Positions 1,802 through 4,948 of a DNA stretch of 6,577 nt are shown piece after piece. The first letter of the stretch is position 1. Each line of letters opens with the position of its first letter. The DNA is taken from the UHGV virus genome UHGV-1437364; one strand, 5' to 3'. The notes under the pieces are model-generated. The model was not told the origin of the DNA and did no database searches. It saw nothing but the letters and a program-made list of their open reading frames with translations. Source of the stretch: a virus. The position numbers were made by a program, and so were the translations under genes.

Positions 1802-2215
1802 TCAGATGGTTTTCAGTATGCGATCGATGTCGCCGTCATCGCCTGGGTTTCTGCCATCGTATGCCATGCCAGCTGATACGGTTTGTGGGCTGTGCATGTC
1901 CATAAAGTTTTCAAAGGCTGCGGTAAGCTCTGGTGCAACCTTCGGGCGTTCCTGCTCTATGGTCATGTTCAGGATGTTTTTAGCCGTATCAACATCGATA
2001 CAAGGCACGTTTGCCATTGCACGCAACAGCGGCTGATAGTCTTTATGCTCATGAAGCGCCATAATCGCATCAGCGCGCGGCTTGTCCTGCTCTTCCAGTT
2101 TGTTGAGTTGATATACGGCCTCGTAGGTTGATAAACCTCTGTCAGCCATTGCCCGCGCTTCGGCTTTAAATTTACTCGCCAGCGGTAGCGCCATGATGCT
2201 TTCATTCGTTGCCAT
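1802..2215 (-). CDS. Hypothetical protein, 137 aa, last gene of the head operon
   Basis: Protein-like ORF with an AGGGGGA ribosome-binding site about 5 nt upstream of the ATG. It follows the decoration gene after a 12-nt gap. No family recognised. Confidence 0.55.
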   Translation of the reverse strand: MATNESIMALPLASKFKAEARAMADRGLSTYEAVYQLNKLEEQDKPRADAIMALHEHKDYQPLLRAMANVPCIDVDTAKNILNMTIEQERPKVAPELTAAFENFMDMHSPQTVSAGMAYDGRNPGDDGDIDRILKTI

Positions 2216-2227
2216 CGTTCCCCCTGC

Positions 2228-2563
2228 TTATCGGGCCAGCGGCTGAACGGATACGCCAGAACCCGCAAAGGCGGCGCATTTTTTCGCATCGGTGTCGACG
2301 CTCTCAGGCCAGTTAACGGCGGCAATATTGAATATCCCCGTCTTGTAACACTGTGCTGATTTCTGCTTTGACGTGTCCACGAGGTACGAAGTCAGATAAA
2401 CAGCCTTGCCAGATTCCTGACCATCCCACGGCTTAAACTCGCCATTGTCCGCCAGCATCAGCGGGGTAAATTCCTGAATAACGCCAGCATCAGCGGCAAA
2501 ATGTACCAGCGTCGTGGATACCTGCTGACTGCCTGCAAATAACTCAATGTATGGAGTGTCCAT
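2228..2563 (-). CDS. Head decoration protein, lambda gpD family
   Basis: 111 aa, against 110 aa for lambda gpD. Aligns with gpD: TPLMLADNGEFKPWDG versus TPLMLDTSSRKLVAWDG, and YKTGIFNIAAVNWPESVDTDAKKCAAFAGSGVSVQ versus [35 protein letters not shown]. Ribosome-binding site GGGGGA upstream. Confidence 0.85.
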   Translation of the reverse strand: MDTPYIELFAGSQQVSTTLVHFAADAGVIQEFTPLMLADNGEFKPWDGQESGKAVYLTSYLVDTSKQKSAQCYKTGIFNIAAVNWPESVDTDAKKCAAFAGSGVSVQPLAR

Positions 2564-2574
2564 AGAATCCCCCG

Positions 2575-3630
2575 TTAAGCAATTTTGACGGTAACAAATT
2601 TGCGAATATCTGCCGGAACCGGCTGCGGTGCGCTGTGCGTCTGCACGTACTCAATCGCCGGATCGCCGTCCTCAATCCAGTTTTTCGGGTAGTACATGTT
2701 TTGCGTTGCGCCTGTTCTTACCGCTTCCTGATCCATAATCGCACCATAGGCCACCAGCCCTTTGTTGTTGGTGTTGCCCAGGACCAGCAAATCAGGATCA
2801 AGGAAATATTTTTCTGTGCCGTCGCTGTCAGTGTATTTGCCGGAATAGACGATAAGGGCAATATCGCCCAGATAGCCTTTAAAGCTCACCACTTCGCCCA
2901 GGTTTTTACAGGCCAGCTCTGCGGCGGACTCTGAACCACGGGAAAGATCGTACAGCTCACGGAATTTTTTAAAGCTGCGTAACGTTCGCCATACCTCAAC
3001 GCCCATAATCATGACGTTTGCGGGGCAACCAGCCTGATCGGCGTATAGTTCGATATCATAGATTGGATCGTGGGTTTCTTTGTCCTGCTCTGACCATTTT
3101 TTCCCGTCGGCCTGCTCTATGATGTTTTTTTCCGGTATCTTCCAGTCGATTTCATAGCGCTCTATGCCTTCGCCCTCAATGATGTTTTTTCCGGTCGTTA
3201 CCGCATTTACCGCCAGCCATTCCACGCGCGCTTTTATGGCGTTTATCTGGCGGCGCATATTGCCAGTAATCAGGCGCATACGGCGATAGGTAGGGTCGTT
3301 AAGCTGTGCCGGATCTTCTCCAGCCATGCGCATGATGGTTTTCGTTGGATCGATTTCGTGCTTTGGCTTCATGTAGCCAGGTTTAATCGTGCTGGTTTCG
3401 TACCCTTTATCGCGCTGAACCTGGCTACCCACCATAGGCGAACAAAACGCCGACATGGTGACTTCTTCAATGTCCAGGGTATCCAGCATGATGTTTTGCG
3501 TGTTGAATGTCGCCACGTTCGGGAAAAACAGCGCGGTAAACAGCGGACTAAATTTAAATTCCGCAATATCCTCGCGATTCAGGTACGCGAAAAGCTGGTG
3601 TGTGTTAAGTGCCATTGCTTTGACTGCCAT
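2575..3630 (-). CDS. Major capsid protein, lambda gpE family
   Basis: 351 aa, against 341 aa for lambda gpE. Shared motifs include EFKFSPLF/KFKFDPLF, PGYMKPKHEIDP/PGYVKPKHEVNP, VLGNTNNKGLVAYGAIMD/VLGNTQARGLRTYGCIQD and YYPKNWIEDGDPAIEY...SAP/RYPKNWVTTGDPAREF...SAP. Confidence 0.9.
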   Translation of the reverse strand: MAVKAMALNTHQLFAYLNREDIAEFKFSPLFTALFFPNVATFNTQNIMLDTLDIEEVTMSAFCSPMVGSQVQRDKGYETSTIKPGYMKPKHEIDPTKTIMRMAGEDPAQLNDPTYRRMRLITGNMRRQINAIKARVEWLAVNAVTTGKNIIEGEGIERYEIDWKIPEKNIIEQADGKKWSEQDKETHDPIYDIELYADQAGCPANVMIMGVEVWRTLRSFKKFRELYDLSRGSESAAELACKNLGEVVSFKGYLGDIALIVYSGKYTDSDGTEKYFLDPDLLVLGNTNNKGLVAYGAIMDQEAVRTGATQNMYYPKNWIEDGDPAIEYVQTHSAPQPVPADIRKFVTVKIA

Positions 3631-3836
3631 TATTCACCCCCATGAGTCTGATTTATGCCCAGCGCCGCGCGTAAATAGGAGCGTACCTGCCAGCCTGTTG
3701 ACGGCTCAACCATCGCCAGCGGATCAAGTCCTGCCGCAATGCCTGCTTTTACGTTCTGCTGGTGGCGTTCCTTGAGCGCCTTCACGATGTCGGGGCTTAT
3801 GTACACCGAAACACCGCCTTTTTTCTCTTCAGCCAT
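3630..3836 (-). CDS. Hypothetical protein, 68 aa, translationally coupled to the major capsid gene
   Basis: Its stop codon overlaps the capsid start codon by 1 nt (TAATG). A good ribosome-binding site (AAGAGGAA) lies about 10 nt upstream of its ATG. No family recognised. Confidence 0.55.
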   Translation of the reverse strand: MAEEKKGGVSVYISPDIVKALKERHQQNVKAGIAAGLDPLAMVEPSTGWQVRSYLRAALGINQTHGGE

Positions 3837-3871
3837 AGTAAGAAATTCCTCTTTGACTTAAAAAATCATAA

Positions 3872-3921
3872 CTGGATGTTCATCCAGCTCTGATTATAAT
3901 CATGATTGCATTTTGTGCAAT
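3872..3921 (-). promoter_or_regulatory. Candidate sigma70 promoter for the head operon, overlapped by operator-like palindromes
   Basis: On the minus strand: -35 TTGCAC (3920..3915), 16-nt spacer, -10 TATAAT (3898..3893). Palindromes are CTGGATG-TT-CATCCAG (3872-3887) and AATCATGATT (3898-3907). A TATAAT also reads on the plus strand at 3895-3900. Confidence 0.4.
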
Positions 3922-4001
3922 GATGTTGAGTTGCGTTGCAAATTATGAAATGATTATCCCGATCATGTGTGTCAGTGCACCAAAAAGCCTCATATGCAAA
4001 A

Positions 4002-4038
4002 GCCCGATAAGCCACCTCTGACCTTATCGGGCTTTTTT
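4002..4038 (+). terminator. Intrinsic terminator-like hairpin on the plus strand with no plus-strand gene upstream
   Basis: 10-bp stem GCCCGATAAG (4002-4011) pairing with CTTATCGGGC (4023-4032), an 11-nt loop, then TTTTTT (4033-4038). Only a 4-A run precedes it, so it is weak in the minus direction. Confidence 0.5.
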
Positions 4039-4164
4039 ATCTGCCTGCAAAGATGTCGAACGAAAATTAACCACAACCATCATCTTTTTTGCATCAAAAC
4101 AATTAAAAACAATAAATTACGCTCATGATGATGATGACGATAAAATCACAAAAATGCGCTTTTT

Positions 4165-4212
4165 TCCGCGCCTCCCGCCCCGTGTTCAGGCCACCCCGCC
4201 AGGAGGACCCGT
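4165..4212 (-). repeat. Degenerate cos-like relic (cosQ-like plus disrupted cosN)
   Basis: The minus strand reads ACGGGTCCTCCTGG...ACGGGGCGGGAGGCGCGG, against the intact ACGGGGCGGCGACCTCGCGG at the two cos sites. The adjoining ~36 bp (4201-4234) is about 90% identical to 1761-1796. Confidence 0.45.
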
Positions 4213-4234
4213 AAAAAAGCCGGATTGCTCCGGC
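4213..4234 (-). terminator. Intrinsic terminator ending the ORF92-SSB operon
   Basis: The minus-strand RNA reads GCCGGA-GCAA-UCCGGC followed by U6, about 17 nt downstream of the SSB stop. It is a near copy of the 1774-1795 terminator. Confidence 0.6.
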
Positions 4235-4250
4235 TTCTGTCACTCGTCGC

Positions 4251-4673
4251 TTAAAACGGTATGTTATCCCCGTACGGATCATCATTCCCCGCCTGTTGTT
4301 TTGCCCTGTTCAGCGCGTCAGTAGCCTGGCCCTGTTGACCTTTTTTGCCGCCCAGTCGCGCCGTTCGCGCACTGATTACACTGTCTGCGATAACCTGCCA
4401 GCCCTGCCGCGTTTCTCCGTTCTGCCCAGTCCACTGGCTGATCTGCATGTTACCCGCCACGCTCAGGAGTTCACCCTTGCGGTGCCTTTCCAGTGCTTCG
4501 GCCTGTCTGCCAAATGCCAGGACGGATAACCACATCGTCGCCGTTCCGTCATCTGCCTGGCTGCACGGAAGGGGGACCGCCATACGCGCCAGCGTCATCG
4601 GTGTGCCCTTGCTGGTCTGTTTTACCTGCGGGTCGTCCACCAGCCGCCCGTAAGCGGCTATCTGTGCTGTCAT
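4251..4673 (-). CDS. ssb: Single-stranded DNA-binding protein (SSB), short form
   Basis: OB-fold pattern matches E. coli SSB: YGRLVDDPQV versus VGNLGQDPEV, WLSVLAFGRQAE...RKGE...WTGQNGETR versus WHRVVLFGKLAE...RKGS...WTDQSGQDR. It has a Gly/Gln-rich linker and an acidic C-terminal tip DDPYGDNIPF (E. coli DFDDDIPF). Confidence 0.8.
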   Translation of the reverse strand: MTAQIAAYGRLVDDPQVKQTSKGTPMTLARMAVPLPCSQADDGTATMWLSVLAFGRQAEALERHRKGELLSVAGNMQISQWTGQNGETRQGWQVIADSVISARTARLGGKKGQQGQATDALNRAKQQAGNDDPYGDNIPF

Positions 4674-4948
4674 GATTCCACCTCTCCGGTTTTAACGTTG
4701 ATGGTTGTTACCTGTTCCGCTTCGGCAATCTCCCGTTCTGTCAGCGTGGCAAAGTTTGCCGCTGCTGTGGTCATGAATGCGCTTATCAGGTCGGGATGTT
4801 CCTTCGCGTATCCTTCCCCTACGTGTCGGTCTATCGTTCTGATTGCCACCTTTAAAGCGTGCTCTGTCATGTCTAACGCGCGATATTTCGGTTCTGTTCT
4901 GTCTCTGCGTTTTTTGAGTGATTTATTAAATTTCCCTGAAGTGTGCAT
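4670..4948 (-). CDS. Hypothetical protein, 92 aa, translationally coupled to ssb
   Basis: Its stop overlaps the ssb start (ATGA). A GAGGGGG ribosome-binding site lies about 11 nt upstream of the ATG. The charged composition is protein-like, whereas the antisense ORF is Cys/Ser-rich. No family recognised. Confidence 0.55.
   Translation of the reverse strand: MHTSGKFNKSLKKRRDRTEPKYRALDMTEHALKVAIRTIDRHVGEGYAKEHPDLISAFMTTAAANFATLTEREIAEAEQVTTINVKTGEVES

What the first reader, a model, noticed from the sequence alone, without database searches (positions are those of the whole stretch)
1802..4948. Three small unassigned proteins at key positions in the head and replication operons
ORF68 (3630-3836) is translationally coupled to the major capsid gene. 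ORF137 (1802-2215) sits between the decoration gene and cos. ORF92 (4670-4948) is coupled to ssb next to the origin. None matches a lambda head protein I can recognise. Their positions make them candidates for scaffold or size-determination, packaging accessory or helper-interference, and replication-accessory roles respectively.
Basis: inference. Interest (0 to 1): 0.45.

Follow-up and report, generated by a model that had tools for sequence, protein, structure and literature searches.

The report
Three small genes of a phage satellite
The three small genes are real, conserved parts of a known E. coli phage satellite (an EcCICFT073-type island): one is a stand-alone copy of the lambda head scaffolding protein, the other two remain unassigned, and published work on the sister island shows the head genes are not needed for transfer in the laboratory.

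Summary
The window is an adapter-flanked fragment. It is 99.7% identical to a chromosomal island at tRNA-Pro in E. coli Nissle 1917 and ATCC 25922, a sister of the model Gram-negative PICI EcCICFT073.

All three ORFs are real. They have Shine-Dalgarno sites and the stated overlaps, and dN/dS is 0.11-0.33 against divergent homologues. The positions relative to cos and the iteron origin are as described.

- **ORF137** does match a lambda head protein. It belongs to the same PHROG family as the C-terminal part of lambdoid gpC/Nu3, the scaffolding protein. It has two Nu3 repeats plus the Nu3 tail. It closes a four-gene operon, ORF68-coat(gpE-like)-decoration(gpD-like)-ORF137, which ends in a terminator just before cos.
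- **ORF68** sits directly upstream of the coat gene in 80 of 80 related loci. It is a two-helix protein with only weak ribbon-helix-helix signals.
- **ORF92** sits directly upstream of ssb in all 62 loci that carry both genes (it is present in 69 of 80). It is helical and has no significant match.

Published work on EcCICFT073 bears on function:
- The homologous c1498-c1501 block can be replaced by cargo without stopping transfer.
- None of these genes alone blocks lambda.
- The island is packaged in phage-sized heads.

Verdict: a useful re-annotation inside a known element. Low to moderate interest.

The parts
3630..3836 (-). ORF68 (c1498 homologue). First gene of the capsid operon: a small two-helix protein, possibly a ribbon-helix-helix regulator.
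   Evidence: ORF. phrog_3255, unknown function, E 1e-36. No Pfam, NCBIfam or PADLOC hit. AF2 pLDDT 76 with helices 15-34 and 47-59. Directly upstream of the coat gene in 80/80 loci and in the Citrobacter, Pluralibacter and Salmonella islands. Weak RHH signals.
2575..3630 (-). gpE-like major capsid protein (c1499 homologue).
   Evidence: Pfam Phage_cap_E, E 3e-52. 44% identity to lambda gpE. 97% identity to the CFT073 island copy.
2228..2563 (-). gpD-like head decoration protein (c1500 homologue).
   Evidence: Pfam HDPD, E 6e-17. 97% identity to the CFT073 island copy.
1802..2215 (-). ORF137 (c1501 homologue). Stand-alone Nu3/gpC-C-terminal-type scaffolding protein homologue: two Nu3 repeats plus the C-terminal tail.
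   Evidence: phrog_1999, E 4e-65, and phrog_53 positions 494-567 of 583, E 2.7e-9. Lambda Nu3 and CFT073 prophage gpC residues 365-501 hit phrog_1999 at E 2.7e-26 and 1.5e-68. BLASTP gives 36% identity over 83 aa, E 6e-10. Alignment.
1773..1798 (-). Intrinsic terminator ending the ORF68-E-D-ORF137 operon.
   Evidence: 9-bp GC-rich stem followed by U6, directly after the ORF137 stop.
1701..1772 (-). cos site (cosQ/cosN, with cosN at 1730-1741) facing ORF180. Its cosB differs from the helper's.
3860..3921 (-). Conserved promoter-like region of the capsid operon: TATAAT at 3893-3898, palindrome ATTGCA-N5-TGCAAT at 3905-3921, and a leader hairpin with U-run at 3860-3895.
   Evidence: Conserved across the E. 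coli, Citrobacter, Pluralibacter and Salmonella islands. Hairpin z-score -4.0.
4670..4948 (-). ORF92. Small helical protein co-translated with SSB; function unknown.
   Evidence: phrog_1231, unknown function, E 3e-52. AF2 pLDDT 66, helical. No fold or PDB match. Present in 69/80 loci and directly upstream of ssb in all 62 that carry both genes. dN/dS 0.11 against Citrobacter.
4251..4673 (-). Single-stranded DNA-binding protein.
   Evidence: Pfam SSB, E 5e-15.
4209..4238 (-). Intrinsic terminator after ssb.
   Evidence: 10-bp stem followed by U6, z-score -3.6.
4996..5222 (.). Replication origin iterons (GGTAGAYAG, 10 copies on both strands).

Best explanation
The three ORFs are genuine, conserved genes of an EcCICFT073-type Gram-negative phage-inducible chromosomal island (PICI). 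This copy sits at tRNA-Pro in the E. coli Nissle 1917 / ATCC 25922 lineage.

**ORF137.** It is a stand-alone homologue of the lambdoid scaffolding protein, that is, the Nu3 / C-terminal part of gpC. It has two copies of the roughly 35-residue Nu3 repeat followed by the Nu3 C-terminal tail. It is the last gene of a four-gene operon: ORF68, gpE-like coat, gpD-like decoration, ORF137. The operon has its own conserved promoter and ends in a terminator in front of cos.

- Shown: the homology and the operon layout.
- Inferred: ORF137 acts as the cognate scaffold or chaperone for the island's own coat protein. Like Nu3, it may link that coat to the helper's portal and protease, so that island coat subunits can enter heads built with helper parts.

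**ORF68.** It is the invariably linked leader gene of this operon. My best guess, at low confidence, is a small dimeric ribbon-helix-helix-like DNA-binding protein. It would autoregulate the operon at the conserved palindrome that overlaps the promoter.

**ORF92.** It is a small helical protein of the replication module, translated together with SSB just downstream of the iteron origin. Its role is unknown. It is inferred to be an accessory or regulatory factor of island replication.

**Dispensability.** For the two head-operon genes, published work on the sister island shows they are not needed for helper-mediated transfer in the laboratory. ORF92 has not been tested that way. Whatever these genes do is accessory or specific to certain helpers.
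For: **Identity of the element**
- 99.7% identity over 6.5 kb to the Nissle and ATCC 25922 island, which carries int, alpA-type HTH, icd-like and primase genes.
- Same gene order as EcCICFT073, with 92-96% nucleotide identity over most of the window.

**ORF137 is Nu3-like**
- ORF137 hits phrog_53 (head maturation protease), positions 494-567 of 583, E 2.7e-9.
- Reciprocally, lambda Nu3 hits ORF137's own family phrog_1999 at E 2.7e-26.
- The gpC-like protease of the CFT073 icd prophage hits phrog_1999 over its full length with residues 365-501, E 1.5e-68.
- BLASTP against that gpC gives 36% identity over 83 aa, E 6e-10.
- An HMM of the satellite family alone finds that gpC at E 2.9e-13 and a 195-aa Nu3-like protein with three repeats at E 2.3e-16.
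- The alignment shows the shared repeat and the tail F-x-x-F-M-x-x-H-S-P...A-G.
- Lambda Nu3 is the scaffolding protein and interacts with the portal gpB, gpC, itself and gpE (PMC3224144).

**Operon structure**
- Overlaps and Shine-Dalgarno sites.
- Terminators after ORF137 and after ssb.
- Promoter-like region conserved across four genera.

**Linkage**
- ORF68 sits next to the coat gene in 80/80 loci. ORF137 is present in 72/80. ORF92 is present in 69/80 and sits directly upstream of ssb in all 62 loci that carry both genes.
- The same cassette occurs in Citrobacter, Pluralibacter and Salmonella.

**Selection**
- dN/dS 0.11-0.33.

**ORF68 as ribbon-helix-helix**
- The only Pfam families touched by family members are BrnA_antitoxin and RHH_1.
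- hhalign puts the strand and first helix in register with Arc and CopG, P 0.0025.
Against: **Function not shown**
- No function is demonstrated for any of the three genes.
- In EcCICFT073, c1501::tetA islands still transfer (PMC6092414).
- c1498-c1501 can be replaced by cas9 or melA with transfer retained (PMC10530653, PMC10460865).
- The island goes into phage-sized capsids (PMC6092414). A scaffold role is therefore not needed with lambda, phi80 or the CFT073 helper in the laboratory.

**ORF137**
- It is deleted in 3 and frameshifted in 2 of about 75 informative natural loci.
- Salmonella and Pluralibacter islands have an unrelated 77-79-aa protein in its place.
- Unlike Nu3, it is not nested in a protease gene, and it lies after E-D rather than before D-E.

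**ORF68**

**ORF92**
- The model has low confidence (pLDDT 66).
- The best sequence hint, a TFIIB-like helix-turn-helix, has E about 1.
Confidence: 0.6

Rival explanations
1. ORF68 is a scaffold or capsid-size determinant, in the manner of CpmB or Sid. ORF137 is a packaging accessory or helper-interference factor acting at cos or on terminase. ORF92 is a replication accessory.
For: - ORF68 is translationally coupled to the coat gene and always adjacent to it. It is a 68-aa helix-loop-helix protein, similar in size to the SaPI1 scaffold CpmB (the CpmB comparison is from my own knowledge).
- ORF137 abuts cos.
- ORF92 is coupled to ssb next to the iterons.
Against: - The scaffold homology belongs to ORF137, not ORF68.
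- ORF68 has no fold match to any scaffold.
- EcCICFT073 is packaged in phage-sized heads, and neither c1498 nor c1501 alone blocks lambda. The interference and packaging-redirection function maps to rppA (PMC6092414, PMC6739421).
- ORF137 is unrelated to Rpp.
Confidence: 0.12
2. ORF137 is a decoy scaffold. By mimicking the C-terminal, coat- or portal-binding part of the helper's gpC/Nu3 without the rest, it competes with the helper scaffold. It would then poison or redirect head assembly of certain lambdoid phages, as an interference or defence function.
For: - It retains only the C-terminal repeats and tail of gpC/Nu3.
- It is closest to the gpC of the natural CFT073 helper-type prophage: 36% identity, against 23% to lambda Nu3.
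- There is a precedent in SaPI1 CpmB, which mimics the helper scaffold C-terminus (own knowledge; cited generally in 10.1101/2022.09.08.507074).
Against: - Expression of each post-ori EcCICFT073 gene alone did not reduce lambda plaques, except rppA (PMC6739421).
- It is co-transcribed with its own diverged coat and decoration genes, which fits a cognate set better than a decoy.
- No PADLOC match.
Confidence: 0.13
3. The head-operon genes, including ORF68 and ORF137, are decaying remnants of a captured helper late-gene cluster and have no present function.
For: - They are dispensable for transfer and replaceable by cargo (PMC10530653, PMC10460865, PMC6092414).
- ORF137 is lost or frameshifted in 5 natural loci.
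- PICI late zones are proposed to arise by capture and loss of helper late genes (PMC10111431).
Against: - Purifying selection, dN/dS 0.24-0.33 and lower.
- Intact ribosome-binding sites, coupling, promoter and terminator.
- The cassette is conserved in four genera, with saturated synonymous divergence.
- ORF68 is never lost in 80 loci.
Confidence: 0.1

Closest known systems
EcCICFT073, the model Gram-negative PICI of E. coli CFT073 (Fillol-Salom 2018, 2019)
   Same: - Same gene order: int-alpA-...-primase-ori-ORF92-ssb-ORF68(c1498)-coat(c1499)-decoration(c1500)-ORF137(c1501)-cos-...-93-aa gene.
- 92-96% nucleotide identity over most of the window.
- ORF68 94%, ORF137 93% and ORF92 73% amino-acid identity.
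- Two inverted cos sites.
   Different: - Different integration site: tRNA-Pro beside yejM here, against the region between roxA and phoQ in CFT073.
- No PerC gene between ssb and ORF68.
- The slot holding rppA (144 aa) in CFT073 holds a full-length Nu1-like 180-aa protein here.
Lambda gpNu3 / C-terminal part of gpC (scaffolding protein), and the gpC-like S49 protease of the CFT073 icd prophage
   Same: - Same PHROG family by reciprocal profile hits.
- Shared repeat I-M-A-L-x-E...P-G-M-T...A-x-x-I-L and shared C-terminal tail.
- ORF137 (137 aa) is close in length to the 131-position 'head scaffolding protein' profile phrog_8399, which covers Nu3 residues 71-201.
   Different: - A stand-alone gene, not nested in-frame in a protease gene.
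- Placed after the coat and decoration genes instead of before them.
- Only 23-36% identical.
- Carried by a satellite that lacks portal, protease and large terminase.
Satellite capsid-assembly factors: SaPI1 CpmB, SaPIbov5 Ccm, P4 Sid; and capsid-forming PICIs (cf-PICIs)
   Same: A satellite that encodes head-assembly proteins related to, or acting on, helper head proteins. Like SaPIbov5 Ccm, the island carries a homologue of the helper coat protein.
   Different: - No sequence or fold similarity of ORF68 or ORF137 to CpmB or Sid.
- EcCICFT073 makes no small capsids with lambda (PMC6092414).
- Unlike cf-PICIs, there is no portal, protease, connectors or terminase large subunit (10.1101/2022.09.08.507074).
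Ribbon-helix-helix regulators and antitoxins (Arc, CopG, ParD, BrnA), compared with ORF68 only
   Same: - A small protein encoded as the first, translationally coupled gene of an operon whose promoter carries a palindrome.
- An N-terminal alternating-hydrophobic strand-like segment followed by two helices.
- Weak hits to BrnA, RHH_1 and ParD2.
   Different: - No hit reaches significance.
- The first helix is longer, and there is a 12-residue loop.
- Dimerisation and DNA binding are untested.

Membership tests
Gram-negative PICI (EcCICFT073 type) | Integrase plus AlpA-type regulator at one end, all genes unidirectional, size about 10-12 kb, inserted at a specific chromosomal site | tested here: met
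   The Nissle locus that contains the window has int, an HTH (AlpA-type) gene and icd-like genes. It spans about 11.5 kb between tRNA-Pro and the narP side. These genes lie outside the window itself.
Gram-negative PICI (EcCICFT073 type) | Own primase/replicase followed by an iteron origin | tested here: met
   A D5_N/DUF5906/Pox_D5 primase, followed by 10 GGTAGAYAG iterons at 4996-5222.
Gram-negative PICI (EcCICFT073 type) | Helper-type cos site(s) with a divergent cosB; no tail or lysis genes | tested here: met
   Two cosN 12-mers. One cos site has a helper-like cosB and the other a divergent cosB. No tail or lysis genes are present in the locus.
Gram-negative PICI (EcCICFT073 type) | Induction, replication and high-frequency transfer by a helper phage | not testable with these tools
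   Shown experimentally only for the sister island EcCICFT073 (PMC6092414).
Lambdoid Nu3 / gpC C-terminal scaffolding family (ORF137) | Significant sequence membership, reciprocal between satellite and phage proteins | tested here: met
   E-values run from 2.7e-9 to 1.5e-68 at profile level, and 6e-10 pairwise.
Lambdoid Nu3 / gpC C-terminal scaffolding family (ORF137) | Nu3 repeat motif and conserved C-terminal tail | tested here: met
   Two repeats, at residues about 6-40 and 49-84, plus the tail FENFMDMHSPQTVSAG...DIDRILKTI. These align with lambda Nu3, CFT073 gpC and P0198.
Lambdoid Nu3 / gpC C-terminal scaffolding family (ORF137) | Encoded in-frame within the 3' part of the protease gene, upstream of D and E | tested here: not met
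   ORF137 is a stand-alone gene downstream of the E-like and D-like genes. The island has no protease gene.
Lambdoid Nu3 / gpC C-terminal scaffolding family (ORF137) | Transient internal scaffold of the prohead, binding coat and portal and removed by the protease | not testable with these tools
   Needs biochemistry. The lambda data are in PMC3224144.
Rpp (redirecting phage packaging) family, considered for ORF137 | Sequence similarity to RppA, RppB or RppC (TerS-like winged-helix DNA-binding domain) | tested here: not met
   No PDB match to RppC at E up to 1. No BLASTP match to CFT073 RppA. rppA is a separate gene.
Ribbon-helix-helix DNA-binding proteins, considered for ORF68 | Profile or fold match to the RHH superfamily; strand-helix-helix dimer | tested here: inconclusive
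   Sub-threshold hits only:
- BrnA E 0.017 in 3 of 18 members and RHH_1 E 0.15 in 2 of 18.
- hhalign probability 12%, P 0.0025.
- Foldseek E above 5.

A dimer could not be modelled.
Capsid size-determination scaffolds (CpmB, Sid), considered for ORF68 | Fold or sequence similarity; production of small capsids | tested here: not met

The most novel reading that the evidence does not exclude
The ORF68-coat-decoration-ORF137 operon is a working minimal shell kit: coat, cement and a cognate Nu3-type scaffold, plus a regulator or assembly factor. With the right natural helper supplying only portal, protease, large terminase and tails, it would build island-specific and possibly smaller heads. That would make EcCICFT073-type islands an intermediate between classical PICIs, which use helper capsids, and capsid-forming cf-PICIs, which supply all head parts themselves. 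It would also explain why the cassette is conserved yet dispensable with lambda and phi80.
Probability: 0.15. Interest if true: 0.65.

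Novelty: new member of a known kind. Interest (0 to 1): 0.3.

Why it matters
EcCICFT073-type islands are the model Gram-negative phage satellites and are being engineered as delivery vehicles. Their coat and decoration genes have had no known role.

Recognising that the gene after them is a Nu3-type scaffold shows the island carries a coherent coat, cement and scaffold set under purifying selection. It is not a pair of stray capsid genes. This gives a concrete hypothesis to test: assembly of island-encoded shells with particular helpers.

It also corrects a misleading public name ('head-tail connector protein').

For engineering, it confirms that c1498-c1501 is one transcription unit with its own promoter and terminator. 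That is consistent with its successful use as a cargo slot.

Tried and rejected
**Searches that found nothing for the three ORFs**
- tblastn of each ORF against 50,697 phage records: no match at E up to 0.01.
- Pfam, NCBIfam and PADLOC: nothing significant.
- PDB sequence searches, single sequence and profile: nothing.
- HMMs of the ORF68 and ORF92 families against six-frame translations of the lambda head region and the CFT073 lambdoid prophage: no hit. These two are therefore not fragments of helper genes.

**Searches that were uninformative**
- The single-sequence search of 1.84 billion representatives with ORF137 gave only 9 hits. One (P0197, 953 aa, 6 matched stretches) I judged a spurious match to a Thr/Ala/Gly-rich repeat protein.
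- Both genome-contig scans matched peptide patterns but confirmed nothing. An earlier call failed for lack of a conserved stretch. The survey was therefore done on IMG/VR loci, which are all close relatives with coat identity 93-100%.

**Ideas rejected**
- ORF180 is RppA. With the start at Met6, it has Leu51 and Phe121 like RppA. However, RppA is a separate 144-aa protein with no BLAST similarity, while ORF180 is 35% identical to full-length lambda Nu1.
- An ORF68-coat fusion by -1 frameshifting at the G5 run. The coat frame has a TGA two codons before its ATG (sequence).
- The 77-79-aa proteins that replace ORF137 in the Salmonella and Pluralibacter islands are shortened Nu3 tails. The match is not significant, E 0.18-0.34 in a 16-sequence target set.
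- The ORF68 promoter region resembles the helper late promoter. No similarity was found.
- Conservation of the ORF92 3' half reflects a DNA element. Synonymous changes are present against Citrobacter: 17.8 synonymous against 11.2 non-synonymous.

Full report
**What the window is**

Both ends (1-46 and 6533-6577) are Nextera transposase adapter sequence. The 436-aa 'primase' ORF, which starts GTG / MYKRQ, is therefore cut by a library junction.

The insert 47-6532 is 99.7% identical to a chromosomal island of E. coli Nissle 1917, ATCC 25922 and relatives. The only differences are a 17-bp and a 1-bp deletion.

In Nissle the island lies between tRNA-Pro (beside yejM) and the narP side. It carries an integrase, an HTH regulator, icd-like genes, DUF4222, a 584-aa primase, ORF92, ssb, ORF68, a major capsid protein, a head decoration protein, ORF137, a 'terminase small subunit' and a 93-aa gene.

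The model Gram-negative PICI EcCICFT073 (CFT073, 1377930-1388654) has the same order. It is 92-96% identical in DNA over most of the window. Amino-acid identities are ORF68 94%, ORF137 93% and ORF92 73%. By position, and by the published statements that c1499 is the capsid gene, c1500 the decoration gene and c1503 rppA, ORF68 corresponds to c1498 and ORF137 to c1501 (PMC6092414, PMC6739421).

**Check of the observation**

- The ORF68 stop overlaps the coat-gene start (TAATG).
- The ORF92 stop overlaps the ssb start (ATGA).
- ORF137 starts 12 nt after the decoration gene.
- All three have Shine-Dalgarno sequences.

A lambda-type cosN 12-mer is on the minus strand at 1730-1741. That is 60 nt beyond the ORF137 stop, with a terminator in between. 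A second, inverted cos lies at 831-903. These correspond to cos1 and cos2 of EcCICFT073 (PMC6739421).

Ten GGTAGAYAG iterons fill 4996-5222, between the primase and ORF92.

The genes are under purifying selection. dN/dS is 0.24-0.33 against CFT073 for ORF137 and ORF92. It is 0.26 and 0.11 against Citrobacter for ORF68 and ORF92. Against CFT073, ORF68 differs at too few sites for a meaningful ratio.

**ORF137 is a Nu3-type scaffolding protein homologue**

Pfam and NCBIfam find nothing. The evidence comes from PHROGs and from direct comparison:

- ORF137 belongs to phrog_1999 (E 4e-65). It also hits phrog_53, 'head maturation protease', at profile positions 494-567 of 583 (E 2.7e-9).
- The test works in reverse. 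Lambda Nu3 hits phrog_1999 with residues 117-200 (E 2.7e-26).
- The 501-aa gpC-like S49 protease of the CFT073 icd prophage hits the whole phrog_1999 profile with residues 365-501 (E 1.5e-68). That prophage is described as the helper of EcCICFT073 in PMC10111431.
- Pairwise BLASTP of ORF137 against that protease gives 36% identity over 83 residues (E 6e-10). Against lambda Nu3 it gives 23% (E 0.06).
- An exhaustive single-sequence search of 1.84 billion representatives found P0198, a 195-aa protein with three Nu3 repeats and the same tail.

The alignment shows what ORF137 consists of. There are two copies of the repeat I-M-A-L-x-E...A-x-x-L-A-x-x-P-G-x-T...A-x-x-I-L. These are followed by F-E-N-F-M-D-M-H-S-P-Q-T-V-S-A-G and a short acidic stretch that ends in I-L-K-T-I.

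Lambda Nu3 is the head scaffolding protein. It is required for portal incorporation and interacts with gpC, itself and gpE (PMC3224144).

The public name of the ORF137 cluster is 'phage head-tail connector protein', or 'head-tail preconnector'. No family model here supports that name. From memory, it probably descends from the phage 21 entry 'head-tail preconnector gp5 [contains scaffold protein gp6]', which is the gpC/Nu3 pair.

I found no paper in the searchable library that links Nu3 to a PICI gene.

**The operon around ORF137**

ORF68, the coat gene, the decoration gene and ORF137 are tightly packed. They end at a 9-bp-stem terminator with a U6 tract.

Upstream of ORF68 there are three features:
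- a perfect TATAAT;
- a 17-bp palindrome, ATTGCA-N5-TGCAAT, over the -35 and spacer region;
- a leader hairpin followed by a U run.

All three are conserved in the E. coli, Citrobacter, Pluralibacter and Salmonella islands, although the genes upstream differ.

The island's coat, decoration and scaffold proteins are each only 36-45% identical to those of the CFT073 helper-type prophage and of lambda. The three therefore look like an old set that has evolved together, not a recent capture. I infer from this that ORF137 serves the island's own coat protein.

**Survey of related islands**

Eighty IMG/VR loci were surveyed, with coat identity of 93-100%.

| Feature | Loci |
|---|---|
| ORF68 206 nt upstream of the coat gene | 80/80 |
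| Decoration gene | 79/80 |
| ORF137 | 72/80 |
| ORF92 | 69/80 |
| ssb | 69/80 |
| ORF92 and ssb both present, ORF92 directly upstream | 62/62 |
| Next slot holds the Nu1-like 180-aa protein | 38 |
| Next slot holds RppA | 18 |

- ORF68 occurs as two alleles, about 95% and about 69% identical to the window copy.
- ORF137 is absent in L058, L068 and L070 and frameshifted in L015 and L087. The remaining gaps are at contig ends.
- The Nu1-like protein and RppA never occur together.
- The Salmonella and Pluralibacter islands keep ORF68, the coat gene and the decoration gene. They have an unrelated 77-79-aa protein in place of ORF137, different replicases, and no ORF92.

**ORF68**

- AlphaFold2 on 18 sequences gives pLDDT 76. 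The model has an extended N-terminal segment (G-V-S-V-Y-I-S) and two helices, 15-34 and 47-59.
- The only Pfam families touched by any family member are BrnA_antitoxin and RHH_1, both below threshold.
The probability is 12% and P is 0.0025.
- ORF68 is the first, translationally coupled gene of an operon that has a palindromic promoter. That layout fits an autoregulator, but this is a weak inference.
- A frameshift fusion to the coat protein is excluded by an in-frame TGA.

**ORF92**

- The model is helical with low confidence (pLDDT 66).
- There are no fold or PDB matches. The best profile hit is the helix-turn-helix part of a TFIIB cyclin repeat, at E about 1.
- The C-terminal half (L-I-S-A-F-M-T-T-A-A-A-N-F-A-T-L-T-E-R-E-I-A-E-A-E-Q-V-T-T-I-N-V-K) is almost invariant, while the N-terminal half varies. 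Synonymous changes against Citrobacter show the constraint acts on the protein.
- A rare in-frame ORF92-SSB fusion exists. It removes the SSB N-terminus and is not good evidence of a functional link.
- Function stays unknown. 'Replication accessory' is an inference from position.

**What published experiments already say**

- In EcCICFT073, the island marked by tetA in c1501 transfers at about 10^3-10^4 per ml. Deletions of c1499 or c1500 change neither transfer nor interference. Packaged DNA is phage-sized (PMC6092414).
- Each gene after the origin was cloned alone, and only c1503 (rppA) blocked lambda (PMC6739421).
- c1498-c1501 has twice been replaced by cargo (cas9, melA), and the island was still transduced by phi80 (PMC10530653, PMC10460865).
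- The two head-operon ORFs are therefore dispensable in the laboratory, and neither is the interference factor.

**Verdict**

The scaffold is ORF137, not ORF68. No size-determination or interference role is supported. ORF92 is unresolved.

The element is a known kind. The new content is the assignment of c1501/ORF137 to the Nu3 scaffold family, and the resulting picture of a conserved coat, cement and scaffold operon of unknown purpose.

Noticed in passing
window 1-46 and 6533-6577: Both ends are Nextera transposase adapter (GTCTCGTGGGCTCGGAGATGTGTATAAGAGACAG and its complement). The window is an untrimmed library fragment. The start of the 436-aa primase ORF (GTG, MYKRQ) is adapter-derived; the real gene is 584 aa in Nissle.
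   Followed up: yes
window 831-903 (+) and 1701-1772 (-): Two inverted lambda-type cos sites flank ORF180. Both contain the cosN 12-mer GGGCGGCGACCT. The plus-strand copy has a cosB like that of the CFT073 lambdoid prophage. The minus-strand copy has a divergent cosB facing ORF180. They correspond to cos2 and cos1 of EcCICFT073.
   Followed up: partly
window 1054-1596 (-): ORF180 is 35% identical to lambda Nu1 over its full length, including the part that binds the large terminase. It sits in the slot that holds rppA (144 aa) in EcCICFT073. In 80 related loci, 38 have the ORF180 type and 18 the RppA type, never both. This suggests two alternative packaging-hijack strategies in otherwise similar islands.
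   Followed up: partly
window 631 (and 4191): Relative to Nissle 1917, the window has a 17-bp deletion. It frameshifts the 93-aa last gene of the island, leaving the 57-aa ORF at 624-797. There is also a 1-bp deletion in the non-coding stretch after ssb.
   Followed up: yes
window 3860-3921 (-): Upstream of ORF68 there is a promoter-like TATAAT, a palindrome ATTGCA-N5-TGCAAT and a leader hairpin with a U run. These are conserved in islands of four genera even though the upstream genes differ. No similarity to the helper's late promoter region was found. The regulator that acts here is unknown.
   Followed up: partly
window 3837-4250; L004 12960-13208: EcCICFT073 and 48 of the 80 related loci carry a PerC-family regulator gene between ssb and ORF68. 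This island has none. Its sequence between about 4039 and 4368 is unrelated to CFT073. It contains two strong terminator hairpins, at 4209-4238 and 3995-4035.
   Followed up: no
window 4670-4948; P0235: ORF92 is mosaic. Its N-terminal half is variable and its C-terminal half nearly invariant, so a recombination breakpoint seems to fall mid-gene. A rare in-frame ORF92-SSB fusion protein (202 aa) is recorded on four contigs.
   Followed up: partly
L015 4828-5240, L087 5906-6318, L058, L068, L070: Natural variants exist in which ORF137 is frameshifted (two loci) or deleted (three loci), while ORF68, the coat gene and the decoration gene stay intact.
   Followed up: yes
ORF137 cluster: Public records name this protein 'phage head-tail connector protein' or 'head-tail preconnector'. 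No Pfam or NCBIfam model supports a connector. The name probably propagated from the gpC/Nu3-type entry of phage 21.
   Followed up: partly
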